From Bdellovibrionales bacterium (GTDB taxonomy: Bacteria; Bdellovibrionota; Bdellovibrionia; Bdellovibrionales; UBA1609), in NCBI GenBank assembly GCA_020850475.1, contig JADZEO010000113.1, positions 631 through 64,630 of the forward strand: DNA of 64,000 nucleotides, given 5' to 3'. Position 1 is the first letter of the stretch. Each line of letters opens with the position of its first letter. Both the position numbers and the translations under genes were made by a program. Positions 10,501-25,274 of the stretch are shown piece after piece. The notes under the pieces are model-generated. The model was not told the DNA's origin. It saw only the letters and a list, made by a program, of their open reading frames with translations, and did not search any database.

Positions 10501-12438
10501 TTAGGCGGCCGGTCTTAGATTCTGCGTAATAAACGGGGTCACACGATTGCGGCCCCGGTTTTTGCTGGTGTACATCGCTTGGTCGGCCGCTTCGATCAAC
10601 TCATCGACCGTGGTCGCATGGTTGGGCAAACACGCATACCCGATACTAATCGTTACATGAAACTCCCGGCCATTATACAAAAACTGATGGCTGTCCACGC
10701 TCTTGCGTAAGCGCTCGGCAATCTCGGCCACCCGGTGGAGGGGTACGCCATTGAGGACCACGCCAAACTCTTCACCACCCACCCGGCATAAGACGTCTTC
10801 GTTTTTGCGCAAAATGCGTTTTAGAATGTAACCAATCTGCTTCAAGATGGCATCGCCGACCAAATGCCCGTGGTTGTCGTTGAACGACTTGAAGTGATCG
10901 ATATCAAACAAGATGAGCGACACGGGAAATTCCTGAGTCGGACCCGCCGCGATCCCTTCCGCCAACTGCTCTTGAAAGTACGCCCGATTGTTGAGCTGAG
11001 TGAGGTTGTCGCGGGTGGTTTCTTCATGCAGGTACTCATTTTCGAGGAGGACCGTTATATTGGAAGCAACCGTCGAGATAAACTGAATGTCTTCCTGGGT
11101 GAGTTTGTAGTCATTATTCATTGAAAACAGCCCGAGCGCCCCAATGACTTTGCTATTCTTTTTGAGCGGAAAGAGCGCGGTCGTGAGGAGGTCATCTTTG
11201 GTGATCATGCCGCCCGTCTCCGGAGTCAGAAAATCGCTAAAGACCACCGGCTGCTTCATTTGTTGGACCCGGGTCAGCAGCGGGTTGACGAGGTTCATCA
11301 CCACCTTGAGATTTTGACGGTCACCATTATCACCATCGACCGGAAAGACTCGGCCCACATGGTTTTTGATTTCGCACTCCACGCTCATATATTGGTATCC
11401 AAACAAGGCCACCATGTCGGCATTAAAGTATTCTTTGAGCTGGCTGAGGGCGATCTCAATAACCGATTGTCCTTGCAGGCGCATCGACATGGCCTGTGAA
11501 ATCTGTAGCAAGATCTTGGTTTCTTGGAGTTTGCGCTCCAGCTGCTCGTTCATGACCGCCATTTTGGCGTTGCGCTCAGCCAGGTCGTCGGTGACGCGTT
11601 GGTTGTCATTGAGCGATTGAACCAGGGATTCTTTCATGCGAGCCAGGGAGTTGCTGAGCTGACCGATCTCGTCCTTGCCGTCACTCGCAATTTTAACTCC
11701 GTACTCCCCTCCCGCCACGCGCAGAGCCAGCTGACTGAGTGACTGCAAGGGTTTAATCACGCGACGAACCACAAAGTAGGTCACGGTGGCAGCCAGACTC
11801 AGTCCCAAGAGAAAAATTAATTTCAACAACCAATCGACACTCTGGATGGACTGCAAGACCCCTTTGGTCTCCTGAAAAAACAAAACCTTAAAGCGATCGT
11901 TGCTTGGCAGTTGAAATACCAAGGTCTCGGCCATCCAAACCTGGTCGTTGGCTTTCACCAAGTGCCGACGTCGATCGTCGGATTTTTCCAGTACTAAGCT
12001 GTATAGGTCATCGCGAGTGTTGGAGGAAGTCGTCGGCCACCGGCCCCATACGAGCTTCCCCGTGTCTGCTTCAAAAACCAGGAGATTAAGTCCCATTTGA
12101 CTCTGCAAATCTCGCAAGTAGTCATTGTGACGAAGCGGGTCTTCATTGCTACTCAGGAATTCCTGAAAGCGCTCAACCGCCACGCCTAAGTCTTTCCCCA
12201 ATATCGATTTTGAATATTGATCGTGGGCCCGATTGACTCCCACGTAGACTGCGACCTGGACACAGATCAACACTTCGGCCAAAAGTAAAAAGATCTTTGA
12301 TTGTAAAGACACATCCCCTCCCACGAACCACTTTTTGGATGCGATCGCCACCCCAACCCACCACGAACCACTTGGTGATGGTTTCATTTTACCGCCATTT
12401 CTTATCGGCAAAAAAAAATTGCGCCACCTCGAATCCAT
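10501..12438 (-). CDS. Membrane-bound diguanylate cyclase (sensor-HAMP-GAF-GGDEF)
   Basis: It has two TMs, a HAMP domain (IKPLQSL...GKDEIGQLSNSLARM), a GAF domain and a GGDEF domain (DNLTQLNNR, LFDIDHFKSFNDNHGHLVGD, RVGGEEF). An alternative start is at 12387. Confidence 0.92.
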   Translation of the reverse strand: MDSRWRNFFLPIRNGGKMKPSPSGSWWVGVAIASKKWFVGGDVSLQSKIFLLLAEVLICVQVAVYVGVNRAHDQYSKSILGKDLGVAVERFQEFLSSNEDPLRHNDYLRDLQSQMGLNLLVFEADTGKLVWGRWPTTSSNTRDDLYSLVLEKSDDRRRHLVKANDQVWMAETLVFQLPSNDRFKVLFFQETKGVLQSIQSVDWLLKLIFLLGLSLAATVTYFVVRRVIKPLQSLSQLALRVAGGEYGVKIASDGKDEIGQLSNSLARMKESLVQSLNDNQRVTDDLAERNAKMAVMNEQLERKLQETKILLQISQAMSMRLQGQSVIEIALSQLKEYFNADMVALFGYQYMSVECEIKNHVGRVFPVDGDNGDRQNLKVVMNLVNPLLTRVQQMKQPVVFSDFLTPETGGMITKDDLLTTALFPLKKNSKVIGALGLFSMNNDYKLTQEDIQFISTVASNITVLLENEYLHEETTRDNLTQLNNRAYFQEQLAEGIAAGPTQEFPVSLILFDIDHFKSFNDNHGHLVGDAILKQIGYILKRILRKNEDVLCRVGGEEFGVVLNGVPLHRVAEIAERLRKSVDSHQFLYNGREFHVTISIGYACLPNHATTVDELIEAADQAMYTSKNRGRNRVTPFITQNLRPAA

Positions 12439-12625: not shown

Positions 12626-13111
12626 ATGAACAAGTGGTTACTTTTTGTCTTATCCGCACTGGTGCTGGTGTCATCTGCACCCGTCAGTCACGCACTCAAC
12701 GGTCGGGACATCATTAGTATTATTGATCTCATCGGCAACAATGATCGCGAGCGCCCGCGCCCGCCACGTTACCCTGGTCCCGGTGATCGTCCTTATCCAC
12801 CTCGCTATGGCGTCACTTGCTCGGCTCAAGATAACGGTTGGGAAGAACATTGGCGTGGCCACGACAGTTGCTTTAGTTGTTTGCGCGAGCACGGAAATTG
12901 TACCGAGACCTGCAGTCAATCCTTTCACGTCTGCACCGCGGAAGGTGACGATGGACACGGTCGTCGTTACACCACTGATGGCTCGGGTGAAACCGAGTGG
13001 GAAGCGCGCGACAACGCCCAACGCAATTGCCAGTGGGATCGACTCTACGGTTGCCGCATCGTTCGCTGTGATCGCCAAGAAGAAGTCATCTCTCGTCGCA
13101 GTTGTCGGTAA
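12626..13111 (+). CDS. Secreted cysteine-rich protein (10 Cys)
   Basis: GAGGGGG RBS, signal peptide, an Arg/Pro-rich linker and two Cys-rich modules. An intrinsic terminator follows. Confidence 0.7.
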   Translation: MNKWLLFVLSALVLVSSAPVSHALNGRDIISIIDLIGNNDRERPRPPRYPGPGDRPYPPRYGVTCSAQDNGWEEHWRGHDSCFSCLREHGNCTETCSQSFHVCTAEGDDGHGRRYTTDGSGETEWEARDNAQRNCQWDRLYGCRIVRCDRQEEVISRRSCR

Positions 13112-13212: not shown

Positions 13213-13454
13213 GAACGGCGATGGGACATATCCACCCAAGATCTTCAGAAACCCCCCACGCGTATGTCTCCAAAGCCAAAATCTCCCTCCCGGGAGTGAA
13301 ATCTGAAACAGCACATTCCAATCACTTAACGGCTTGCGTTTAATGCAGTCGCGCAAAGACGTGATGCCAACAAAAGTCTGGCTTCCACGCATCAAGCCTT
13401 TGTATATACTTGAGTTGTTCATTTATCGAAACATTAACATCTATGAGGAGTCCT

Positions 13455-13604
13455 ATGAGTACCAATCAAGAGGTTCCGTTGGGCCAGCGTCTATGTGACA
13501 GCCCATTTCTCCTGCTCATCGCAGGTATTGTCGTTATGTTCGCGTTTTACACAATTTGGGGATTGATCGAAGTGCTCAACCTCCCCCAAGCCACCTTGCC
13601 TTAA
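13455..13604 (+). CDS. Single-TM small subunit of the heme-copper enzyme (subunit IIa/CbaD-like position)
   Basis: GAGGAG RBS precedes the ATG at 13455. The 49-aa product has one TM (PFLLLIAGIVVMFAFYTIWGL) and is the first gene before subunits II and I. Confidence 0.65.
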   Translation: MSTNQEVPLGQRLCDSPFLLLIAGIVVMFAFYTIWGLIEVLNLPQATLP

Positions 13605-13632: not shown

Positions 13633-14181
13633 ATGTCTGACAATTCCATGCATTCTGGCATTGTCTCTCCAAAGGGAATCTGGTGGGTACCTGCCGCTCC
13701 TCAAGAGAGAAAATGGGTCATCGTCGCCTTCATTTGGTGTATGATTTTGTTTGCGATGATGCCTTTGTGGCACTTGCGCGGGGGACAAAACCCGTCAGGT
13801 ATTCGTGCGAAAGTATCAGCCGCCGATTACGAAGCGCGGGTGAATCGCTTTATTGAAGAACATAAAGTGGGCGAAGACAAAGGTGTGCCGATTGTAGCAC
13901 CGCCTCCCGGCAGCGATGTTTATCTGCTCGGCCGGATGTGGTCTTGGTCTCCCATTTTAAAACTTAAAAAAGATACCGAATACACTCTGCACTTGTCGTC
14001 TGTGGACCTCAATCACGGCTTTTCTCTCTATCCGGTGAACATCAACTTCCAAGTGGTTCCTGGCTATGATTACGGCCTGAAGGTCACGCCGAGCAAAGCG
14101 GGTGAATTTAGTATTATCTGCAACGAGTTTTGCGGCATTGGCCACCACTTGATGGTGGGCAAAGTCATCGTCGAAGAGTAA
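13633..14181 (+). CDS. Heme-copper oxidoreductase subunit II (CuA), eNOR-type
   Basis: One TM plus a cupredoxin domain with the CuA ligands NHG and CNEFCGIGHHLM. Confidence 0.9.
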   Translation: MSDNSMHSGIVSPKGIWWVPAAPQERKWVIVAFIWCMILFAMMPLWHLRGGQNPSGIRAKVSAADYEARVNRFIEEHKVGEDKGVPIVAPPPGSDVYLLGRMWSWSPILKLKKDTEYTLHLSSVDLNHGFSLYPVNINFQVVPGYDYGLKVTPSKAGEFSIICNEFCGIGHHLMVGKVIVEE

Positions 14182-14193
14182 GAGGGGTAAAAC

Positions 14194-15921
14194 ATGAATT
14201 CCATTTCAAATCTTGCAGCTAAGTTTCGCACTTGCCCCGTCACTGGTCTTAAGGTCGATCGCACTGCCGAAAACCTGATCAAGGTAAATGCGGTGGTCGC
14301 GGTGGTGTGCCTTCTGCTGGGCGCGGTGGCAGCGCTTCTGATTGTATTAACTCGATGGCAAGCAGTGCACCTGCTACCGGCTGAGTGGTACTATCGCTTG
14401 TTGACCAGTCACGGTCTCAATATGCTTATTTTCTTTATTATTTTCTTCGAGATGGCGGTCCTTTATTTTGCCGGCCCCGTCTTGCTCAACTGCCGATTAC
14501 CCGCCCCTAAGCTGGGATGGGTGAACTTCGGGTTGATGGTCATCGGTATGATCATGGTGAATACGATGGTGTACACCGGCAAAGCCGATGTGACCTTCAC
14601 CAGCTATCCGCCGTTGATGGCCGATCCCATGTACTATCTCGGCATTATCTTGTTTGCCGTGGGTGCCCTCTTGGTGACCTTTCAATTCATGGCAACGCTC
14701 GTCGTGGCCAAGAAAGAAAAAACCTATGAGGGGTCGATCCCGCTGGTGGTGTTTGGCGCTCTTACGGCCAACATCATTGCGATCATCACTCTTCTGCACG
14801 GTGCCCTCATCTTCATCCCCGCCTTCCTCTGGTCGTTGGGTTTGATGAACATGGATCCCCAAATTTACCGCTTGGTATTCTGGGGTCTGGGTCACTCGTC
14901 ACAGCAGATCAACGTCGCAGCCCACGTGGCCATTTGGTACCTCCTCGCTGGTCTGACCTGCGGTGGCGTGGTGCTAAGTGAAAAAGTCAGTCGCGCAGCT
15001 TATGTGCTCTACATTCTGTTTATTTCCATGGCCTCAGCCCACCACTTACTCGTGGATCCTGGGTTTGGTCCGGCTTGGAAAGTGTGGAACACCTCTTACG
15101 CCATGTATCTGGCGGTTCTCGCATCCATGATCCACGGTTTTACGGTTCCGGCCGGCGTGGAGATGGGCCTGCGTTTACGCGGTTACACCAACGGCTTGTT
15201 TGAGTGGCTGAGAAAAGCTCCCTGGGGTGACCCCGGCTTTTCTGGAATGGCCTTGTCGGTTGTGATCTTCGGATTCATGGGTGGAATTACCGGTGTCACC
15301 ATCGGTACCGAGCAGATTAACATCATCGCTCACAATACCCTGCGGATTCCTGGTCACTTCCATGTGACGGTGGTCGGCGGCACGGCACTCGCCTTCATGG
15401 CAGTGACTTATTACGTTCTGCCACTCATTTTCCAAAAGCGCGTGGCGTTTTGGGGCTTGGCGAAGCTTCAGCCTTATCTCTTCGGGATCGGAATTTCGAT
15501 CATGGGGATGGGGATGATCTTCCAAGGGATCTTCGGAGTTCCGCGCCGTCACTGGGATATTACCTTCTCAGGAGCATTGTTCCCCGTTGAGTTTCACCCA
15601 GCGGTGACGTTCTTCCAAGCCGTCATGGGCATCGGCGGGATTATTGCCTTCACCGGAGCCTTGGCGTTTATTTTGATCGCCGTGGTCACGGTATTTTTTG
15701 GCAAAACGGTCACCGAAGCCGATCTTAAGAGTGGCGCTTCTGGACTTCCGCAAGGTGTCTTAAAGCTTCCACCTCAGGTTCACACTGGTGCTCACGTGGT
15801 GAAAGCTCACGAAACGGGCGCACGTGGTACCGTGGTCCTGGTCGGAATCTTCTTTGTTTGCTTTGTGCTTTACTACTTCACCAACTGGAAGATTTTGAGC
15901 TTCCTATGGAAGGTCGGTTAA
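14194..15921 (+). CDS. Heme-copper oxidoreductase subunit I, probable eNOR-family nitric oxide reductase
   Basis: All six His ligands are present (SHG, GH234, AHH, GHFH). The cross-link Tyr position is Gln (H234-S-S-Q-Q238), and an extra Glu323 occurs in HGFTVPAGVE. Confidence 0.8.
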   Translation: MNSISNLAAKFRTCPVTGLKVDRTAENLIKVNAVVAVVCLLLGAVAALLIVLTRWQAVHLLPAEWYYRLLTSHGLNMLIFFIIFFEMAVLYFAGPVLLNCRLPAPKLGWVNFGLMVIGMIMVNTMVYTGKADVTFTSYPPLMADPMYYLGIILFAVGALLVTFQFMATLVVAKKEKTYEGSIPLVVFGALTANIIAIITLLHGALIFIPAFLWSLGLMNMDPQIYRLVFWGLGHSSQQINVAAHVAIWYLLAGLTCGGVVLSEKVSRAAYVLYILFISMASAHHLLVDPGFGPAWKVWNTSYAMYLAVLASMIHGFTVPAGVEMGLRLRGYTNGLFEWLRKAPWGDPGFSGMALSVVIFGFMGGITGVTIGTEQINIIAHNTLRIPGHFHVTVVGGTALAFMAVTYYVLPLIFQKRVAFWGLAKLQPYLFGIGISIMGMGMIFQGIFGVPRRHWDITFSGALFPVEFHPAVTFFQAVMGIGGIIAFTGALAFILIAVVTVFFGKTVTEADLKSGASGLPQGVLKLPPQVHTGAHVVKAHETGARGTVVLVGIFFVCFVLYYFTNWKILSFLWKVG

Positions 15922-15927
15922 GCAAGA

Positions 15928-16851
15928 ATGCGGAAGTCGGCGCTCATCGCCATTTTGGTTTGGTTGGGGGCCACACTGTTTTGGTGGGCCTTCGCCTTCG
16001 CGCCGACTTCAGCTGAGACCCCCGGATGGTTTGAGGCAGCTCGCGTGGCATGCTTTGGACGCATGCCCAATGGGCTGCCCGAACCCTACGGCTGGTTAAA
16101 TCTCGTGCTCAGTCCTATCACTCTCGCCATTACTATTCTCTTTATTTGGAGCCCCCAGGAACTCAAAGAAACTTTTAAGTCGCTAGCCAGTCGTCGCGCC
16201 GGTCAGGCCTTTTTGGTTTGCACGCTGGGCGTGGTTTCAGCTCTCAGTGTTTGGGTCGGACAAAGTGTTCACAAAGCCATTCAAATCGAAATGGTTGACT
16301 TTAGTGCTCCTGATCCCAAGGCTGAGTTACCCGAAGACTACCCACGGCTTAACCGGGTACTTCCGGCGTTTTCTCTTGTCGATCAAACTGGCAACACCAT
16401 CACCGAGAAGTCTTTTTTAGGCCGACCCGTGGTACTGACATTTGCCTTTGCTCACTGTGCGACCGTCTGCCCGGTCATCATCCATCAGGTCCTTCAAGGA
16501 ATTAAGGCCGAAGATGGTGCTGAATTTTTAATCATCACTCTCGATCCCTGGCGAGACACTCCCGGGTCTTTGCCTTCAATCGCCAAAGAGTGGGAGCTTC
16601 CCGAGTTTGCCCATGTGCTCTCTCATCAAAATCCCAAAATTGTGTCAGAGCTTTTTCCCTTATTCGACATGCCAGCCACTCGTGACGATAAAACGGGTGA
16701 CATCACTCACCCAGCCTTGGTATTCGTCATAGATCCGCAAGGACAATGGATCTATACGTTTAACAATCCTCATCCCAGTTGGTTGTCTGAGGCAATTCGT
16801 CGAGTGAGTCTAAAACATGCAGGAATACAAAAGCCTCTACGATATCAGTGA
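15928..16851 (+). CDS. SCO/SenC copper chaperone with N-terminal membrane domain
   Basis: The thioredoxin-fold C-terminus has FAHCATVCP (CxxxC), ITLDPWRD and a distal His (ITHP). The N-terminus has three TMs. Confidence 0.85.
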   Translation: MRKSALIAILVWLGATLFWWAFAFAPTSAETPGWFEAARVACFGRMPNGLPEPYGWLNLVLSPITLAITILFIWSPQELKETFKSLASRRAGQAFLVCTLGVVSALSVWVGQSVHKAIQIEMVDFSAPDPKAELPEDYPRLNRVLPAFSLVDQTGNTITEKSFLGRPVVLTFAFAHCATVCPVIIHQVLQGIKAEDGAEFLIITLDPWRDTPGSLPSIAKEWELPEFAHVLSHQNPKIVSELFPLFDMPATRDDKTGDITHPALVFVIDPQGQWIYTFNNPHPSWLSEAIRRVSLKHAGIQKPLRYQ

Positions 16852-18859
16852 ACTTCCTTTTATTACTCGCCCGCTAAAAAAACTGCTCACCATCATCGAT
16901 CGCTTCCTCGATCGGGTTTACACCTCTCGCTACAATCCGCTCTATCGCAGCGGCACTCTCGCAGTTTTTTGTTTGTTCGCCGCCATGGGGACTGGACTTT
17001 ACTTGATCTTTTTTTACCGCATCGGCACTCCCTACGAGTCGATCGTCGATATTCAAGCCCAAACCTGGGGAGCCAAATGGATGCGGGCCATGCATCGCTG
17101 GGTTTCAGACGCCGCCGTGGTCGCTCTCGTCTTTCATATTTTGCGGCTGCTCATCCAAGGTAAAACTTGGGGCCAGCGCACGCTGGCGTGGCTCACGGGA
17201 GTTTTCCTCACCATCTTGATGTTTATCTCCGCCTGGACAGGCTACGTGATGGTGTGGGACGAACACGGTCTCGCCGTCGCCAAGATGGGGGCCAAGATTT
17301 TGGACCTCATGATGATCTTTCCCGAAAGTTTTGAACGCTCTTTTACCGGCTTAAAGCCGGTGCCGCCCTCCTTCTTTTTTATGAATCTCTTTGCCCATGT
17401 GGCGGTTCCTCTTGGCATGATCATGGTTTTGTGGCTCCACACTTTTAAGCTCGCCCGCGCCAAGTGGCTCCCGGAAAAGCATCTCACCTATTGGCTCACC
17501 GCCACTTTTGTTTTGTTCTCGATTTTTGTGCCGGCTCCGCTCATGGATGGTGCGGACACGCTCGCCATTCCTGGAGGCTATCCCACCGATTTTTTCTATA
17601 ACGCCTGGATGCCCTTTTTGGAATGGTACTCCCCTCAGATGGTGCTGGGACTTTCCGCACTCATCACCATTTTCTTGTCGTCCTTTCCCTGGTGGTGGCG
17701 GCCGAAGGGGCATCGGCAGCGCTTGGCTGTCGCCGCTGGCGTTGATGTCAAGCGCTGCGAAGGATGCTCACAGTGCTACAGTGACTGCCCCTTTGACGCA
17801 ATCACCATGGAAGCACGCAACGTCCCGGGTGAGCCCGCTCTTTACTCCTCGGTAAATCCTGAGTTGTGTGTGAGTTGCGGAATTTGTATTGCGTCGTGCT
17901 CTTCATTGGCGATCGGGCCTTCAGAAAACACCGCTCGCGACATGATTCGCAAATTCAAAACTTTTAGTGACAGTCAGGATCGCTCGGCATTTAAGGGCGT
18001 GTTGTTTGTCTGTAAACACGGCGACCTTTCTTCGGTTGCCGCGCGCCAAGCCCATGCCCGCAAGTGGCTTCACTATGACGTCGACTGCACGGGCTCACTG
18101 CACTCCGCCTTGCTGACCTATGGAGCCAAAACCTATGGCCGCGTCGGCATTGCGGGTTGCCCCGAAAATAATTGCGTGTTCCGCGAAGGACCGGATTGGC
18201 TCAAAGAGCGCTGGCAACGTAAGCGCGGACCACCCCTACCCTTAAACATTCCTCAAGATGACGTTTTTCTGTTTAATGGCTCTCAGCCCGAAACCAAACC
18301 CCTGTGGGATTGGATGGACGGGAAACCCTTAAGCCCGCCCAGCCGTTTTCAGCAGGCCACACAATGGGCTTCAGGAATTGTCGCCACCGCGGCACTGCTC
18401 AGTTTTGTCGCTTGGGGCAGTCAGATTCGCTGGAACGAGGACCCCTCTCATGGAGCCCTCCGCCTTGGCTGGCGACTCCCAGGTCAAAAAATTGAAGAGT
18501 GCCGCGATCTCACCCAAGAAGAACTCAACCAACAATTGGCGCACATGCGCCGCCCTCGTGAATGCAAGGTCACCTACATCAACTACCGTTTGCGACTGCA
18601 AATCGGTGACGATGTCGTCGTCGACCAATTGGTCTTACCACCCGGGCTCAAACACGACCGTCCTCTGGACGTCAGTTTTGATCGCGAGCTCACTCCGGGA
18701 GAGTATCAGATCAAAGTCGCGTTCATTCCTGAAGATAATGACAACGCTCCGCGCTTCGAATTCGAAGGTCCAATTCAAGTGATCGAAGGTCGAGTGGTCC
18801 TCATTGCGCTGAGTGAAGCGGAACGTCGCCTTAAGGTTGTGACCTCTACACTCAAATAA
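16817..18859 (+). CDS. Cytochrome b / 2x[4Fe-4S] ferredoxin / MvhD(FlpD)-like fusion protein
   Basis: The cytochrome b6-like N-terminus has four heme His (MHRW, VFHILR, FAHV, WLHT). It continues with CEGCSQCYSDCP and CVSCGICIASC, then MvhD-like Cys spacing (VCKH, DCTGS, AGCPENNCVFREG), a TM and a C-terminal domain. Confidence 0.8.
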   Translation: MQEYKSLYDISELPFITRPLKKLLTIIDRFLDRVYTSRYNPLYRSGTLAVFCLFAAMGTGLYLIFFYRIGTPYESIVDIQAQTWGAKWMRAMHRWVSDAAVVALVFHILRLLIQGKTWGQRTLAWLTGVFLTILMFISAWTGYVMVWDEHGLAVAKMGAKILDLMMIFPESFERSFTGLKPVPPSFFFMNLFAHVAVPLGMIMVLWLHTFKLARAKWLPEKHLTYWLTATFVLFSIFVPAPLMDGADTLAIPGGYPTDFFYNAWMPFLEWYSPQMVLGLSALITIFLSSFPWWWRPKGHRQRLAVAAGVDVKRCEGCSQCYSDCPFDAITMEARNVPGEPALYSSVNPELCVSCGICIASCSSLAIGPSENTARDMIRKFKTFSDSQDRSAFKGVLFVCKHGDLSSVAARQAHARKWLHYDVDCTGSLHSALLTYGAKTYGRVGIAGCPENNCVFREGPDWLKERWQRKRGPPLPLNIPQDDVFLFNGSQPETKPLWDWMDGKPLSPPSRFQQATQWASGIVATAALLSFVAWGSQIRWNEDPSHGALRLGWRLPGQKIEECRDLTQEELNQQLAHMRRPRECKVTYINYRLRLQIGDDVVVDQLVLPPGLKHDRPLDVSFDRELTPGEYQIKVAFIPEDNDNAPRFEFEGPIQVIEGRVVLIALSEAERRLKVVTSTLK

Positions 18860-19097: not shown

Positions 19098-21089
<1,992 letters not shown>

Positions 21090-21974: not shown

Positions 21975-22074
21975 AGAATAGCCCCATGTGTTGTTCTGTT
22001 TGCCTGTGCATATCAAGTTTGAGACAAATAGTAAAAAGACAATGAGCAAAATGTCTCAATTAGAAAGGCGCACC

Positions 22075-23088
22075 ATGCGAAAGATGATGCTTATTTGGAC
22101 GGTGTTTAGTCAGTTGGTCTCAATCGCCGCTTTTGCAGATGTATCAGACGGACAAAAACTCTTTCAACAGCGTTGTATCTCCTGTCACACCGTCGGAAAA
22201 GGCAAGGGCGTTGGCCCTGACCTTCAAGGCGTTACCCAGCGACGGGAACAGGCTTGGTTACACCGTTGGATCCGCGAGCCCGATAAAATGCTCGCAGAAA
22301 ATGATCCGACGGCAACAGCACTCTTAAAAGAGTACAACCAAGTCCCAATGCCCAACATGGCAATCACCCCTGAGCAAGCCGATCAAATTCTGGCTTACCT
22401 GGCGAATCCAACCGCAGAAGCCGCTGCTTCTGGCGATGCCAATACCGCAGCCGGAACTACGAGTGAGGCTACCTCCCCGGGGGGAAGCAGTCAAGCGCAT
22501 GATCAAGCTCCAACTTTTGCGACGAGGGGTCGAACTCAAAACATCGCCTTCTTCTCGTTTTTGTTTATCGCGCTGGTCATTGTTCTGGTGTTCTTTTGGG
22601 TGGGTAGCACAACTTCGAATCCTCAAACCATCGATATGAAAGCCGCTTACAAGTTACGCAAAGTGTTTTTCATTTCGGGATCATTCGTTGCGATGGGGAT
22701 CTTGGCCATCACCATGTCCAAGACACCTTATGCTGATGCCCTCACCACTCCCGACAATGTGATCTATGCCACTGCCATGCAGTTTAGCTTCACTTTCTCG
22801 AATGAGCCAGTGAGCAGCGCGCAAGAGCTCTCAACGGTATCGCCCATCAGCTCGCTTGAAATTCCACGAGACACTTTGGTTGAATTTCGGGTCACCAGTC
22901 TCGACGCCACTCATGGCTTTGCCATTTACAATCAACAAGGCGTGGTCTTTGCCCAAACTCAAGCTATGCCGGGGTACACCAATCGACTGCGGGTGCGTTT
23001 TTCTGAACCTGGTGTCTACCCGGTGCTTTGTTTGGAATATTGCGGGGCCGCTCATCACATGATGCGTACCTCACTCGTCGTAAAATGA
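22075..23088 (+). CDS. Heme-copper oxidoreductase subunit II with an N-terminal fused cytochrome c (sNOR-type)
   Basis: GAAAGG RBS precedes the ATG at 22075. The order is signal peptide, CISCH...MPNM cytochrome c, Ala/Ser/Thr linker, two TMs, then CuA ligands THG and CLEYCGAAHHMM. Confidence 0.85.
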   Translation: MRKMMLIWTVFSQLVSIAAFADVSDGQKLFQQRCISCHTVGKGKGVGPDLQGVTQRREQAWLHRWIREPDKMLAENDPTATALLKEYNQVPMPNMAITPEQADQILAYLANPTAEAAASGDANTAAGTTSEATSPGGSSQAHDQAPTFATRGRTQNIAFFSFLFIALVIVLVFFWVGSTTSNPQTIDMKAAYKLRKVFFISGSFVAMGILAITMSKTPYADALTTPDNVIYATAMQFSFTFSNEPVSSAQELSTVSPISSLEIPRDTLVEFRVTSLDATHGFAIYNQQGVVFAQTQAMPGYTNRLRVRFSEPGVYPVLCLEYCGAAHHMMRTSLVVK

Positions 23089-23107
23089 ACGGAAAGGTTT
23101 AAGAAAA

Positions 23108-24523
23108 ATGGATTTAGCAAAAAAGAATACCCTCGCCTGGATTGCAATTACACTCATTCTGTTCCCCATCCTTTTGTTACTCGGAATTCTCATGCGGACC
23201 GTACAGGCCAATGGGCTTAGTGCGGCTCAGGAGTGGTTTTACCCCTTTATGACTCTTCACGGAGTCGGCATGGTTGGTGTTTGGTATGTGGGTGCGATGG
23301 CTTGTGCCGAACGCATTATCGCCAAGTACACCAAACCCAGTGCCGCGATTTCAACCTTTGCAATTGTGGGCACCACTATCGGCGTGGTGCTGCTGTTGGT
23401 TTGCGTGCTCATTGGCAAGTTTGCGGCAGGTTGGTACTTCCTTTACCCACTCCCCTTCAAGGGTAACTGGCCGGTTTGGGCAGCGACTACCTTTTTACTT
23501 TCAATCACGGTTCTCGGTGCCACTTGGCTCATTTGGAGCTTAGATCTTTTGCGCGCGATCGCACAAAAGTACTCCATCTCCAAAGCTCTGGGTTGGCACT
23601 ACATCGGAGGCGCCACCGAACCTGATGTACCTCCGGCAATTATCATTTCAACTGTCAGCCTTCTCGCCTGTGTCGCCTGTCTTTTGGCCGGCGTCACCGT
23701 GCTCGTGCTCTTTGACGCCGAACTCATCGCAGGAGTCCGCAATGACGCCTTGTTGGTGAAGAACTTGACCTTCTTTTTTGGTCACGTCCTGGTGAACTTG
23801 AGTCTCTATTTGGGTGTGGCAGTCATTTACGATGTTCTCCCTCAATATTGTGATCGTCCGTGGAAAGCGAATAAGATTGTCGCGATTTCTTGGAATAGCG
23901 TACTCGCGATTGTTTTTATGGCTTACTTCCATCACCTCTATATGGACTTTGTGCAGCCGACGACCTTTCAATATCTGGGACAAATCGCATCTTACATGAG
24001 TTCACTTCCCGCCGCTGTGGTCACGATCTTTGGCGCCTTGGCACTGGTGTTCCATGCTAAGATGCGCTGGACTCTTACCTCCGCCTTGTTTTACTTAGCT
24101 CTCATGGGCTGGGCGATCGGCGGCGTTGGTGCAGTCATCGACTCCACGATTGCCGTAAACTCAAAGTTTCACAACACCCTTTGGGTGCCAGCTCACTTTC
24201 ACACCTATATGTTAGAAGGCCTGGTACTGATGGTGCTTGGCTACTACTATCATTTCGTTCAAGAGAACGCGAAACTCCCCGAGAGCTGGGGCTTTCATAA
24301 AGTCATCTTGAGTATGATTGTCGTCGGCGGCTACGGCTTTCTGATGATGTTTTATATCTCAGGTGCGAATTCAGTCCCTCGACGTTTCGCGACCTACCCT
24401 GCAGAAGTAGCACACGGTGCCTCTTACTCGGGTTTCGCGGCGGTTTTTGCCACCGTGTTTTTCATGGGTTTACTTCTTTATGCCATCGAGACTGGAAAGC
24501 GCTGGCTGAATGTTCGCGGTTAA
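23108..24523 (+). CDS. Heme-copper oxidoreductase subunit I, probable sNOR-family nitric oxide reductase
   Basis: His ligands are TLHG, GH226, FHH and AHFH. The cross-link Tyr position is Asn (H226-V-L-V-N230). It also has HHLYMDF and HNTLWVPAHFH and is a compact 471 aa. Confidence 0.75.
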   Translation: MDLAKKNTLAWIAITLILFPILLLLGILMRTVQANGLSAAQEWFYPFMTLHGVGMVGVWYVGAMACAERIIAKYTKPSAAISTFAIVGTTIGVVLLLVCVLIGKFAAGWYFLYPLPFKGNWPVWAATTFLLSITVLGATWLIWSLDLLRAIAQKYSISKALGWHYIGGATEPDVPPAIIISTVSLLACVACLLAGVTVLVLFDAELIAGVRNDALLVKNLTFFFGHVLVNLSLYLGVAVIYDVLPQYCDRPWKANKIVAISWNSVLAIVFMAYFHHLYMDFVQPTTFQYLGQIASYMSSLPAAVVTIFGALALVFHAKMRWTLTSALFYLALMGWAIGGVGAVIDSTIAVNSKFHNTLWVPAHFHTYMLEGLVLMVLGYYYHFVQENAKLPESWGFHKVILSMIVVGGYGFLMMFYISGANSVPRRFATYPAEVAHGASYSGFAAVFATVFFMGLLLYAIETGKRWLNVRG

Positions 24524-25274
24524 ACGCCTCGTAGGTATCTTGCTGCCGTGGTTGTTGGCGATACCGACAACTGCGGCGATCGCCGATGAGATTATGCGGA
24601 CCGAGGCCAAAGGCCTTTACAAATCACTTCCTGACATTCCCGTACAAATCGCCAATGGACAAACCCAACCCCTCTCCTCTTTCTGGAAAGACAAGCCGGT
24701 TCTGCTTACACTTTTTTATCGCCGGTGCAGTGGCTCTTGTAGTCCATTCTTGATGAATCTTAAGTCAGCTGTGGAAGACTCCGGCGGACTCGGTGATTTT
24801 TATCAAGTTGTCGCTTTAAGTTTTGACCCGCGTGACACCCTTGAAGACCTCCAACAGTCCGCTGCCACTTTTAAGTTGGACCAATCGCCCGACTGGCACT
24901 TTGCTGTGGCCGATGCCGCAAGTATTGCCAAGATTGCCGACACCATTGGTTTTTGGTTTAAAAAGATCCCGACCGACCAAGAGCAGTTTGATCACCCCTC
25001 GATGATTGCCGCCATTCGCGATGGCAAGATTGTCCGAGTCCTAGTCGGTACTGAAATTCCTCATGCGCGGATGCGCGATCTCATCTACGAAGTCAAAGGG
25101 GTGTTCGTGCCCTTTTTGGCAGTGCCCGGCAAAGACACGATTTTTCGCTGTTTTAAAATTGATCCCAAGACTGGCACTCTTCGTCTTGACTGGGGAATCC
25201 TAATTCTTATGGCCCCCGCCCTACTCGCCGCCTTGATCGGCTATTTTATATTCCGACGCAAGCCCGCGCCGTAA
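24510..25274 (+). CDS. SCO/SenC copper chaperone (C-terminally anchored)
   Basis: RCSGSCSP (CxxxC), LSFDPRD and FDHP, with a C-terminal TM. It overlaps the subunit I stop. Confidence 0.85.
   Translation: MFAVKRLVGILLPWLLAIPTTAAIADEIMRTEAKGLYKSLPDIPVQIANGQTQPLSSFWKDKPVLLTLFYRRCSGSCSPFLMNLKSAVEDSGGLGDFYQVVALSFDPRDTLEDLQQSAATFKLDQSPDWHFAVADAASIAKIADTIGFWFKKIPTDQEQFDHPSMIAAIRDGKIVRVLVGTEIPHARMRDLIYEVKGVFVPFLAVPGKDTIFRCFKIDPKTGTLRLDWGILILMAPALLAALIGYFIFRRKPAP

What the first reader, a model, noticed from the sequence alone, without database searches (positions are those of the whole stretch)
16817..18859. Rieske-less cytochrome b fused to 2x[4Fe-4S] ferredoxin and an MvhD/FlpD-like domain
Seen: one 680-aa polypeptide combining a di-heme cytochrome b6-like domain (four His), a subunit-IV-like part where the Qo PEWY motif is replaced by PTDFFY, two CxxCxxCxxxC motifs, MvhD-like [2Fe-2S] Cys spacing and a Cys-pair extracytoplasmic tail. 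No Rieske or cytochrome c1 gene is nearby, and it overlaps the SCO gene in the eNOR operon. Established: MvhD/FlpD are electron-input modules of heterodisulfide-reductase complexes in anaerobes. Inference: an uncharacterised transmembrane redox module linking cytoplasmic Fe-S carriers and the quinone pool to eNOR function or maturation, for example reductant supply for FeB/CuA insertion.
Basis: partly seen in the sequence, partly recalled or inferred. Interest (0 to 1): 0.8.

Follow-up and report, generated by a model that had tools for sequence, protein, structure and literature searches.

The report
Rieske-less cytochrome b–FeS partner of eNOR
The gene is real and encodes a membrane cytochrome b wired to three cytoplasmic iron-sulfur clusters; it travels with one type of nitric-oxide reductase (eNOR) in hundreds of bacterial species, so it is probably that enzyme's private electron link, but the fusion was already noted in 2014 and its function is still untested.

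Summary
Observation confirmed in every detail. ORF 16817-18859 (+) encodes 680 aa:
- a two-haem cytochrome b with four invariant His;
- helices E-F with a Qo motif of the PDWF type (TDFF here);
- 2x[4Fe-4S];
- an MvhD/FlpD-like four-Cys domain;
- a seventh TM helix;
- a periplasmic beta-sandwich with no solved relative.

The start overlaps the SCO gene by 35 nt. The upstream haem-copper enzyme carries the eNOR signature (GHSSQQ, with CuA in subunit II).

The genome has no Rieske protein and no other cytochrome b. It does have a complete alternative complex III.

The coupling to eNOR is near-absolute:
- about 75 informative loci from more than 10 phyla show it;
- 6 of 6 eNOR genomes against 0 of 295 others in the window's phylum;
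- 58 of 58 against 0 of 192 in Gemmatimonadota;
- it survives gene inversion, gene splitting and 25% sequence identity.

It is not universal. One distant eNOR clade lacks both SCO and this gene. One homolog sits by a ba3-type oxidase and carries an extra cytochrome c domain.

The architecture is the "PDWF-FeS clade" of Kao & Hunte (2014), so this is a new member of a known but uncharacterised family. Best reading (about 0.4): eNOR's dedicated quinol- and cytoplasm-linked electron partner. Main rival: a SCO-coupled maturation reductase.

The parts
13410..13604 (+). Small one-helix membrane protein just upstream of eNOR subunit II. The start codon is uncertain. The conserved part is the last ~44 residues, PLGQRLxDxPFLLL..FYTxWGLxExxSLPxAxLP.
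   Evidence: Found in the same place in essentially all related loci, 51-84% identical.
13633..14181 (+). eNOR subunit II, a cupredoxin with a full CuA motif.
   Evidence: COX2/CoxB matches. H128, C163xExC167xxxH171xxM174 are read in the sequence.
14194..15921 (+). eNOR subunit I (575 aa). GHSSQQ places Gln at the Tyr position. The HH and GHFH ligands are present.
   Evidence: PF00115 E 8.5e-64. Sequence. The signature is defined in PMC8756737.
15928..16851 (+). SCO copper chaperone (CxxxC C177/C181, H261) with an unusual ~145-aa N-terminal part. That part has three predicted TM helices and a conserved periplasmic loop (W34, C42-F43, G49, P51, G55-W56).
   Evidence: PF02630 E 1e-19. Conservation over 74 sequences and TM scan.
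16817..18859 (+). The finding: a 680-aa cytochrome b / 2x[4Fe-4S] / MvhD-like / TM / beta-sandwich protein (P0001).
16922..17452 (+). Four-helix, two-haem cytochrome b core (residues 36-212). Haem ligands are H93, H107, H194, H208. W147-D148 corresponds to the b6 'PWDQ' at the p-side pocket.
   Evidence: Pfam. PDB profile hit to b6, E 3e-20. Conserved at 95% or more across 135 representatives.
17477..17695 (+). Helices E and F (the part like subunit IV) with the Qo motif T257-D258-F259-F260. The family consensus is x-D-W-F.
   Evidence: Foldseek and profile matches to bc1 cytochrome b run to about residue 298. D258 is conserved at 80% or more. The motif class is named in PMC4122944.
17741..17911 (+). 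Cytoplasmic 2x[4Fe-4S] ferredoxin domain (residues 309-365).
   Evidence: Fer4 family hits. Match to the HdrA C-terminal ferredoxin domain, E 6e-15. Eight invariant Cys.
17996..18220 (+). MvhD/FlpD-like domain (residues 394-468) with C399, C424, C448, C453 as presumed [2Fe-2S] ligands.
   Evidence: Foldseek hit 8rvu_F, TM 0.53. NCBIfam match to HdrA2 positions 563-728, E 2.6e-11.
18344..18424 (+). Seventh transmembrane helix (residues 510-536). It carries the C-terminal domain to the periplasm.
   Evidence: AF2 helix 510-536. Topology follows from positive-inside loops read in the sequence and from the cytoplasmic Fe-S domains.
18452..18841 (+). Periplasmic beta-sandwich (residues 546-675). 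It carries the conserved loop C562-RDLTxEELxxxxxHMRxPRE-C583. This module is a separate gene in Gemmatimonadota.
   Evidence: AF2 model pLDDT 94.8. No PDB match at E<1e-3. Split gene in L056. H576-M577 invariant.
19128..21089 (+). Context: cd1 nitrite reductase NirS with two N-terminal cytochrome c domains. It makes eNOR's substrate.
   Evidence: PF02239 E 2e-144 plus two cytochrome c domains. It has the highest RNA contig depth in wastewater metatranscriptomes.

Best explanation
P0001 is a member of the Rieske-less 'PDWF-FeS' clade of cytochromes b. It acts as the private electron-transfer partner of the eNOR-type nitric oxide reductase encoded just upstream.

Anatomy (shown by sequence, profiles and models):
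- Seven TM helices, N-terminus inside, C-terminus outside.
- Two bis-His b haems stacked across the membrane.
- A retained p-side quinol pocket: helices E-F, the x-D-W-F motif and W147-D148.
- On the cytoplasmic side, a chain of two [4Fe-4S] clusters and one MvhD-type [2Fe-2S] cluster.
- On the periplasmic side, a beta-sandwich held by the seventh helix.

Mechanism (inferred):
1. Quinol is oxidised at the p-side pocket.
2. One electron leaves on the periplasmic side towards the CuA subunit of eNOR. The beta-sandwich acts as the docking or relay element. In a ba3-linked homolog a fused cytochrome c takes that place.
3. The other electron crosses on haems bL and bH to the Fe-S arm, which exchanges electrons with a cytoplasmic partner. 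In paralogs from other organisms that partner is a fused FAD/NAD(P)H domain.

The direction of flow through the Fe-S arm (out of or into the cytoplasm) is not settled. The protein is not needed for eNOR catalysis in vitro, and it is not the cell's general quinol:cytochrome c route.
For: 1. Obligate genomic coupling.
- At least 576 species genomes carry a relative.
- Every locus with enough flank (about 75) has the small ORF, subunit II, subunit I and SCO next to it. The one exception is L055, and its genome has the cassette on another contig.
- The coupling survives inversion to a divergent arrangement and gene splitting in Gemmatimonadota.

2. Phyletic profile.
- Window's phylum: 6/6 eNOR genomes against 0/295 others.
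- Gemmatimonadota: 58/58 against 0/192, with 57 of 58 pairs on the same contig.

3. Depth. The coupling holds at 25-31% identity: L094, L095, L099 and L101 all carry eNOR with the Gln signature.

4. The Qo-type pocket is kept.
- Helices E-F are kept, although a four-helix core would suffice for a plain wire.
- W147-D148 is conserved at 95% or more and D258 at 80% or more across 135 representatives.

5. The L097 homolog lies next to a ba3-type oxidase (GHPLVY) and has an added C-terminal cytochrome c (CHICH). Cytochrome c is the classical donor to CuA.

6. Ferrigenium homologs were detected in the proteome together with eNOR under denitrifying growth (bioRxiv 10.64898/2026.01.22.701106).

7. 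The gene is transcribed in wastewater metatranscriptomes, with contigs about 99% identical over 17973-18859.
Against: - No high-potential cofactor is evident on the periplasmic side. There is no Rieske protein and no haem c motif, and the beta-sandwich has only H576-M577 invariant. The first electron of quinol therefore has no obvious acceptor within range of CuA.
- Quinol oxidation at a Qo site without a Rieske protein has no characterised precedent.
- Purified R. marinus eNOR is a two-subunit enzyme, active with TMPD/ascorbate.
- The organism already has alternative complex III and c-type cytochromes to feed CuA.
- The protein diverges as fast as the assembly factor SCO: mean identity 40% and 39%, against 72% for subunit I, with r = 0.79 to SCO.
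- It usually sits among biogenesis genes, in the order SCO - fusion - haem O synthase.
- The cytochrome c variant is a single example.
Confidence: 0.4

Rival explanations
1. Maturation factor working with SCO. The protein is a transmembrane reductase that carries electrons from the cytoplasmic Fe-S arm, or from quinol, over the two haems to the periplasmic face. There it keeps SCO thiols or Cu (Cu(II) to Cu(I)), or Fe for FeB, reduced while eNOR's metal centres are assembled.
For: - The start overlaps or abuts the SCO stop in co-directional loci: 35 nt in the window, 14-17 nt in L001, L004, L005 and L100, and 0 nt in L101.
- Divergence rate equals that of SCO and correlates with it, r = 0.79.
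- Gene order puts it between SCO and haem O synthase.
- The one eNOR clade without it (L089) also lacks SCO in the cluster.
- Purified eNOR works without it.
- The cassette's SCO has a special three-TM N-terminal part that could dock to it.
Against: - L097 has the protein directly after subunit I with no SCO, and adds a cytochrome c.
- In Gemmatimonadota it lies at the opposite end of the cluster from SCO, on the other strand.
- In G301 it is on another contig than SCO.
- The periplasmic Cys pair is dispensable.
- A five-cofactor chain plus a conserved Qo pocket is much more than known Cu or thiol reductants use. By established knowledge those are TlpA and DsbD/CcdA.
- The sNOR cluster in the same window has its own SCO-like gene and a CuA subunit but no such partner.
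Confidence: 0.27
2. One-way wire from the cytoplasm. Reducing equivalents from a cytoplasmic donor (ferredoxin, or NAD(P)H via a flavoprotein docking on the MvhD-like domain) flow [2Fe-2S] -> 2x[4Fe-4S] -> bH -> bL -> periplasmic domain -> CuA. This gives a quinone-independent, non-conserving NAD(P)H/Fd:NO reductase for fast NO removal.
For: - It is a linear chain that uses every cofactor.
- The arrangement of ferredoxin domain plus MvhD matches the C-terminus of HdrA2.
- Paralogs in Alicycliphilus and Ferrigenium carry fused FAD/NAD(P)H domains.
- The family lives mostly in heterotrophs such as Bdellovibrionota, Gemmatimonadota and Verrucomicrobiota, which do not need reverse electron flow.
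Against: - It does not explain why helices E-F and the Qo-type residues are kept.
- No conserved flavoprotein or ferredoxin gene lies nearby.
- There is still no bridging cofactor between bL and CuA.
Confidence: 0.15
3. Reverse or bifurcating use, as proposed for Ferrigenium. The energy of NO reduction pulls one quinol electron, and the second is pushed to low potential to reduce NAD+ or ferredoxin in the cytoplasm.
For: Same structural features as the best explanation. Proposed in bioRxiv 10.64898/2026.01.22.701106. It fits the very high potential of the NO/N2O couple (established knowledge).
Against: - Most carriers are heterotrophs with no need for it.
- P0001 has no flavin or NAD domain.
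- The electron would have to move against the membrane potential and reach -320 mV or lower.
- No precedent exists without a Rieske centre.
Confidence: 0.1
4. A generic donor:quinone oxidoreductase module, analogous to SdhBC of di-haem succinate:quinone reductases. Its link to eNOR would be only regulatory or a matter of co-transfer.
For: The cofactor set ([2Fe-2S], two [4Fe-4S], two b haems, p-side quinone site) parallels di-haem SQR/QFR (established knowledge).
Against: The near-perfect two-way co-occurrence and adjacency hold across more than 10 phyla, an inversion, a gene split and 25% identity. That is hard to explain without a direct functional tie.
Confidence: 0.05

Closest known systems
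'PDWF-FeS clade' of cytochrome b (Kao & Hunte 2014, Genome Biol Evol, PMC4122944; read)
   Same: - A full cytochrome b including the Qo motif, fused to a 4Fe-4S domain and an MvhD (methyl-viologen-reducing hydrogenase delta) domain.
- No Rieske protein in the cluster.
[quoted passage not shown]
   Different: - The clade was defined from three sequences in a survey of Qo motifs. No link to eNOR, no periplasmic domain and no function were described.
- Here the motif is T-D-F-F, so the otherwise 96%-conserved Trp is Phe.
Cytochrome b of bc1 complexes; cytochrome b6 plus subunit IV of b6f
   Same: - Fold: Foldseek TM 0.46-0.6, profile E 3e-20.
- Four His haem ligands.
- Helices A-F.
- p-side 'WD' and an acidic Qo-motif residue.
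   Different: - No Rieske protein anywhere in the genome and no cytochrome c1/f partner.
- Helices G-H are replaced by cytoplasmic Fe-S domains.
- An extra TM helix and a periplasmic beta-sandwich are added.
C-terminal ferredoxin domain plus MvhD of heterodisulfide reductase HdrA2 / the MvhD subunit of Mvh-Hdr complexes
   Same: - Same order of a 2x[4Fe-4S] domain followed by a four-Cys MvhD-like domain: NCBIfam HdrA2 positions 563-728, E 2.6e-11.
- PDB MvhD hits.
   Different: - No HdrA flavin domain.
- No HdrBC or hydrogenase genes nearby.
- The host is a (micro)aerobic denitrifier, not a methanogen or sulfate reducer.
QmoC, DsrMK, HdrDE (membrane cytochrome b joined to cytoplasmic Fe-S proteins), from established knowledge
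   Same: They work alike: a two-haem membrane anchor with a quinone site, wired to cytoplasmic Fe-S clusters.
   Different: Those anchors are of the NarI/HdrE type, not the bc1 type. They serve sulfur or methane metabolism, not a haem-copper enzyme.
Cytochrome b-Fe-S proteins in the Ferrigenium straubiae eNOR operon (bioRxiv 10.64898/2026.01.22.701106)
   Same: - A cytochrome b plus [Fe-S] protein encoded in an eNOR operon with sco1.
- Detected in the proteome.
   Different: - That preprint treats the genes as 'rather unusual' markers of Ferrigenium and proposes quinol:NAD+ reduction.
- The data here show the gene is the rule in a large eNOR clade across many, mostly heterotrophic, phyla.
- Orthology to P0001 was not tested here.

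Membership tests
Cytochrome b of Rieske/cytochrome b complexes (bc1, b6f) | Four-helix bundle with two His pairs binding haems bL and bH | tested here: met
   H93/H107 and H194/H208 are invariant. PF00033 scores 50.4 bits against a cut-off of 27.2.
Cytochrome b of Rieske/cytochrome b complexes (bc1, b6f) | C-terminal part (helices E-F) with a Qo motif (PEWY and its variants) | tested here: met
   Matches to bc1 cytochrome b extend to about residue 298. The motif is T-D-F-F, with family consensus x-D-W-F.
Cytochrome b of Rieske/cytochrome b complexes (bc1, b6f) | Works with a Rieske [2Fe-2S] protein | tested here: not met
   PF00355 finds nothing in the whole genome, while 10 of 14 control genomes are positive.
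Cytochrome b of Rieske/cytochrome b complexes (bc1, b6f) | Works with a cytochrome c1, f or di-haem c subunit encoded alongside | tested here: not met
   No such gene lies in the cassette here or in about 75 related loci.
PDWF-FeS clade (Kao & Hunte 2014) | Cytochrome b with Qo motif fused to a 4Fe-4S domain and an MvhD domain, with no Rieske in the cluster | tested here: met
   Placement in their tree was not computed.
MvhD/FlpD (PF02662) | HMM score above the curated cut-off | tested here: inconclusive
   P0001 alone scores 13.4-17.7 bits against 22.3. 16 of 17 homolog domains match at E<=0.01, and L095 and L097 score 31 and 42 bits.
MvhD/FlpD (PF02662) | Four Cys that bind the [2Fe-2S] cluster | tested here: met
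   C399, C424, C448 and C453 are invariant and align with the Cys of MvhD chain 9sw2_D. Cluster binding itself cannot be tested here.
MvhD/FlpD (PF02662) | Partner of a heterodisulfide reductase or hydrogenase | tested here: not met
   No Hdr or hydrogenase genes lie in the window neighbourhood or in related loci.
2x[4Fe-4S] bacterial-type ferredoxin domain | Two CxxCxxCxxxC(P) motifs | tested here: met
   Residues 314-324 and 351-361 are invariant. PF12838 scores 33.5 bits against 27.
eNOR (the neighbouring enzyme) | Gln in place of the cross-linked Tyr, three His for FeB, and a CuA subunit II | tested here: met
   GHSSQQ, the HH motif and the CuA motif are present. The definition is in PMC8756737. 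NO reductase activity cannot be tested here.
ExtP (NF040969) selenite/tellurite operon cytochrome b | Score above the equivalog cut-off | tested here: not met
   79.6 bits against a cut-off of 290.

The most novel reading that the evidence does not exclude
The protein, its periplasmic beta-sandwich and eNOR form a supercomplex with no Rieske protein and no cytochrome c. In it the CuA domain, or an unrecognised cofactor held by the invariant His-Met loop, plays the part of the Rieske head at a Qo-type site. The very high potential of NO reduction pulls one quinol electron. The second electron is driven across the two haems into the Fe-S arm and yields a low-potential cytoplasmic reductant. That would be a new kind of quinol-based electron bifurcation coupled to denitrification.
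Probability: 0.12. Interest if true: 0.9.

Novelty: new member of a known kind. Interest (0 to 1): 0.62.

Why it matters
eNOR is a recently validated and environmentally widespread N2O-producing enzyme. Its physiological electron supply and its assembly are unknown.

This protein is as faithful a companion of the main eNOR clade as the enzyme's own SCO chaperone. It is therefore the obvious handle on either question.

- If it is an electron partner, it would show how a bc1-type cytochrome b can work without a Rieske protein. It would also change the energy yield assumed for aerobic denitrifiers in soils and wastewater.
- If it is a maturation factor, it would be a new type of transmembrane reductase for metallo-enzyme assembly.

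For annotation, the pair (eNOR subunit I with Gln, plus this gene) is a sharper marker of this NO reductase clade than 'cytochrome oxidase subunit I'.

Tried and rejected
1. General quinol:cytochrome c oxidoreductase replacing bc1. Rejected: the genome has a complete alternative complex III, ActA-F.

2. Replacement of haem A synthase. Rejected: CtaA is present elsewhere in the genome.

3. Periplasmic domain as a degenerate Rieske head, cupredoxin or known Cu chaperone. Foldseek against the PDB gives nothing below E 1e-3 for a model with pLDDT 94.8; the best hit is TssJ1 at TM 0.4.

4. The C562/C583 pair as essential redox or Cu ligands. Both Cys are lost together in L043, L050, L069 and L095, while the His(-Met) is kept.

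5. A conserved cytoplasmic flavoprotein or ferredoxin partner encoded nearby. Clustering all ORFs from 87 loci shows nothing conserved beyond the cassette.

6. A brand-new fusion. Rejected: Kao & Hunte 2014 described it.

7. Universal eNOR subunit. Rejected: a distant eNOR (L089, GHGTQQ) lacks it genome-wide.

8. NO-specific role. Weakened: L097 pairs a homolog with a Tyr-containing ba3-type oxidase.

10. The supplements of PMC11214002 are not held, so the R. marinus eNOR neighbourhood could not be read.


Full report
THE OBSERVATION

The ORF 16817-18859 (+) is open and encodes 680 aa. Pfam finds Cytochrome_B (residues 36-212, E 3e-13), a 4Fe-4S dicluster domain (309-365) and a weak FlpD match (420-468, E 0.08). 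NCBIfam adds a match of residues 298-467 to the C-terminal ferredoxin-plus-MvhD part of HdrA2 (E 2.6e-11).

An alignment of 32 full-length homologs at 37-65% identity shows these residues invariant:
- the four haem ligands H93, H107, H194, H208;
- both CxxCxxCxxxC motifs;
- C399, C424, C448, C453;
- in the C-terminal part, C562, H576, M577, C583.

Across 135 representatives of 50%-identity clusters, the haem and cluster ligands stay at 95% or more. So does W147-D148, the counterpart of the b6 'PWDQ' at the p-side pocket. D258 stays at 80% or more.

The MvhD-like call is weak for this protein alone but firm for the family:
- 16 of 17 excised domains match PF02662;
- distant members score 31-42 bits against a cut-off of 22.3;
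- a profile of the domain finds only MvhD chains at the top of the PDB list, with the four Cys aligned.

An AlphaFold2 model (pLDDT 80.7, pTM 0.72) has six helices matching bc1 and b6 cytochrome b. It then has the Fe-S domains, a seventh helix (510-536) and a beta-sandwich (546-675). Positive-inside loops and the need to assemble Fe-S domains in the cytoplasm give N-in, C-out. So the sandwich is periplasmic (inference).

- The Qo motif is present in its PDWF-type form (T-D-F-F here, x-D-W-F in the family).
- The 13-residue spacing of the helix D histidines is the bc1 pattern rather than the b6 pattern (established knowledge).

SURROUNDINGS

Upstream on the same strand lie:
- a conserved 1-TM mini-protein (13410-13604);
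- a CuA subunit II;
- a 575-aa haem-copper subunit I with GHSSQQ, the Gln-for-Tyr signature that defines eNOR (PMC8756737);
- a SCO protein whose stop lies 35 nt inside our gene.

Downstream lie:
- a NirS with two cytochrome c domains;
- an FNT channel;
- a second haem-copper enzyme with an Asn signature (sNOR type), with its own SCO-like gene but no cytochrome b;
- haem d1 synthesis genes.

The genome is estimated 100% complete. It has no Rieske protein and no other cytochrome b. It does have a full alternative complex III and a CtaA.

Wastewater metatranscriptomes hold about 99% identical contigs over the eNOR genes, over SCO, over the 3' half of this gene, and at higher depth over nirS.

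COUPLING TO eNOR

A scan of one genome per species found at least 576 genomes with a relative. Among the 80 best loci plus six from metagenomes, every locus with enough flank has the small ORF, subunit II, subunit I and SCO adjacent.

The arrangement differs by lineage:
- In Bdellovibrionota, Methylomirabilota, Verrucomicrobiota, Latescibacterota, Spirochaetota and others the order is co-directional.
- In Gemmatimonadota the gene is divergent from the cassette. It is also split into a 527-aa cytochrome b/Fe-S gene and an overlapping 183-aa TM-plus-sandwich gene.
- The only locus without a neighbouring enzyme (L055) comes from a genome whose eNOR-SCO cassette lies on another contig.

Presence/absence profiles:
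- Window's phylum, 301 genomes: eNOR in six, and strong matches to P0001 in exactly those six.
- Gemmatimonadota, 251 genomes: 58 and the same 58, with 57 pairs on one contig.
- These genomes are related, so the Fisher values (1e-12, 1e-56) overstate independence. The patchy spread over many phyla argues for repeated co-transfer.

The family has 325 clusters at E<=1e-30. Members only 25-31% identical still sit in eNOR clusters (L094, L095/96, L099, L101). These often have haem O synthase after them and a degenerate subunit I paralog before the enzyme.

LIMITS OF THE COUPLING

- One Gemmatimonadota genome (G498) has a distant eNOR, 43-46% identical with GHGTQQ and CuA. It has neither SCO nor this gene.
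- One homolog (L097, 792 aa) follows a ba3-type oxygen reductase with the Tyr intact (GHPLVY), has no SCO between, and carries an additional C-terminal cytochrome c domain (CHICH).
- Purified R. marinus eNOR shows two subunits and is active with artificial donors.

WHAT IT MOST LIKELY DOES

Shown: the cofactor-binding residues, the topology, the retained Qo-type pocket and the genomic coupling.

Inferred: everything about electron flow.

I favour a dedicated electron-transfer partner of eNOR (0.40), for three reasons:
- The family keeps helices E-F and the Qo residues, which a mere wire would not need.
- The coupling follows the enzyme rather than SCO in L097, in Gemmatimonadota and in G301.
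- The ba3-linked variant carries the classical CuA donor, a cytochrome c, at the very place where the eNOR-linked proteins carry the beta-sandwich.

In this model quinol is oxidised at the p-side. One electron goes out to CuA. The other passes through bL and bH to the Fe-S arm.

The weak point is the lack of any recognisable high-potential cofactor outside the membrane.

The main rival (0.27) is a SCO-coupled maturation reductase. Supporting it:
- translational coupling to SCO;
- a divergence rate equal to and correlated with SCO: 40% and 39% mean identity against 72% for subunit I, r = 0.79;
- its place among biogenesis genes.

Further rivals:
- a cytoplasm-to-periplasm wire for quinone-independent NO removal (0.15);
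- the reverse or bifurcating quinol:NAD+/ferredoxin model of the Ferrigenium preprint (0.10);
- a generic donor:quinone module (0.05).

COMPARISON WITH WHAT IS KNOWN

The architecture was described by Kao & Hunte (2014) as the 'PDWF-FeS clade'. They used three sequences and made no link to eNOR or to a function. A neighbour with the same three domains appears in a supplementary table on Chloroflexi eNOR. A 2026 preprint calls two such genes in the Ferrigenium eNOR operon 'rather unusual'. The main eNOR paper does not mention it.

The protein fails the membership test for a Rieske/cytochrome b complex, because it has no Rieske protein and no c1/f. It works like QmoC, DsrMK or HdrDE, or like SdhBC, in joining a two-haem quinone-site anchor to cytoplasmic Fe-S clusters. 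Unlike them it uses a bc1-type fold.

Earlier agents of this scan reached similar readings on other genomes. I consulted them after forming mine and do not count them as evidence. One of them supplied the Kao & Hunte reference, which I checked.

VERDICT

This is a real, expressed, conserved gene. It is a new member of a known but uncharacterised family. The finding is interesting because it is the best lead to the physiological electron supply or the assembly of eNOR.

Noticed in passing
window 21988-25274: A second haem-copper enzyme of sNOR type. Subunit I has GHVLVN, with Asn at the Tyr position. Subunit II carries an N-terminal cytochrome c plus CuA. It is followed by its own SCO-like gene (254 aa). 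There is no cytochrome b partner. So eNOR and sNOR sit side by side, flanking nirS.
   Followed up: partly
window 19128-21089: NirS has two N-terminal cytochrome c domains (C1-C2-d1). PMC8756737 reported this architecture as unique to Chloroflexi. Here it is in a Bdellovibrionota-like genome, and also in L001, L030 and L095.
   Followed up: partly
window 13410-13604: Unannotated small one-helix protein upstream of eNOR subunit II, conserved in essentially all related loci (PLGQRLxDxPFLLL..FYTxWGLxExxSLPxAxLP). It is probably a small eNOR subunit, like subunit IIa of ba3 oxidases. The start codon is unclear.
   Followed up: partly
window 15928-16365 (SCO residues 1-146): The cassette's SCO has an extra N-terminal part with three TM helices and a conserved periplasmic loop (W34, C42-F43, G49, P51, G55-W56). 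Ordinary SCO proteins lack it. No Pfam match.
   Followed up: partly
window 12626-13111: Cys-rich secreted 161-aa protein with no Pfam match. It is conserved (64%) only in the closest relative (L001), at the same place upstream of the eNOR cassette.
   Followed up: no
L094 526-1926; L095 4113-5555; L101 2821-4308: Degenerate subunit I paralogs (466-495 aa; GH[VI]LQ, no HH metal ligands) precede the eNOR genes in the distant-tier clusters. They are possibly the 'eNOR scaffold protein' of the Ferrigenium preprint.
   Followed up: partly
L097 273-4903: A ba3-type oxygen reductase (GHPLVY) is followed directly by a 792-aa homolog of the finding. That homolog has an added C-terminal cytochrome c domain (CHICH at residue 711). 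There is no SCO gene between.
   Followed up: partly
L056 9965-12054 (and other Gemmatimonadota loci L052-L086): The gene is split into a cytochrome b/Fe-S/MvhD gene (527 aa) and an overlapping TM-plus-beta-sandwich gene (183 aa). The pair is transcribed divergently from the eNOR-SCO genes.
   Followed up: yes
L089 7280-9665 (genome G498): A distant eNOR clade: 43-46% identical, GHGTQQ, CuA subunit II and the small ORF. It has neither SCO nor the cytochrome b partner in the cluster or in the genome.
   Followed up: partly
window 17585-17596 (residues 257-260): In this protein and its closest relative the Qo-motif Trp is Phe or Leu (TDFF, TDLF). That Trp is 96% conserved in all cytochromes b according to PMC4122944. 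The rest of the family keeps Trp.
   Followed up: no
window 10501-12438 (-): A HAMP-GAF-GGDEF diguanylate cyclase is divergent from the eNOR cluster and is conserved at the same place in L001. It is a possible NO- or redox-responsive c-di-GMP regulator of the cluster.
   Followed up: no
genomes G400, G416, G441, G529, G513: The eNOR subunit I matches in these Gemmatimonadota genomes are reported with one in-frame TGA or TAA inside the open frame. It was not checked whether these lie within the gene or in the extended frame.
   Followed up: no
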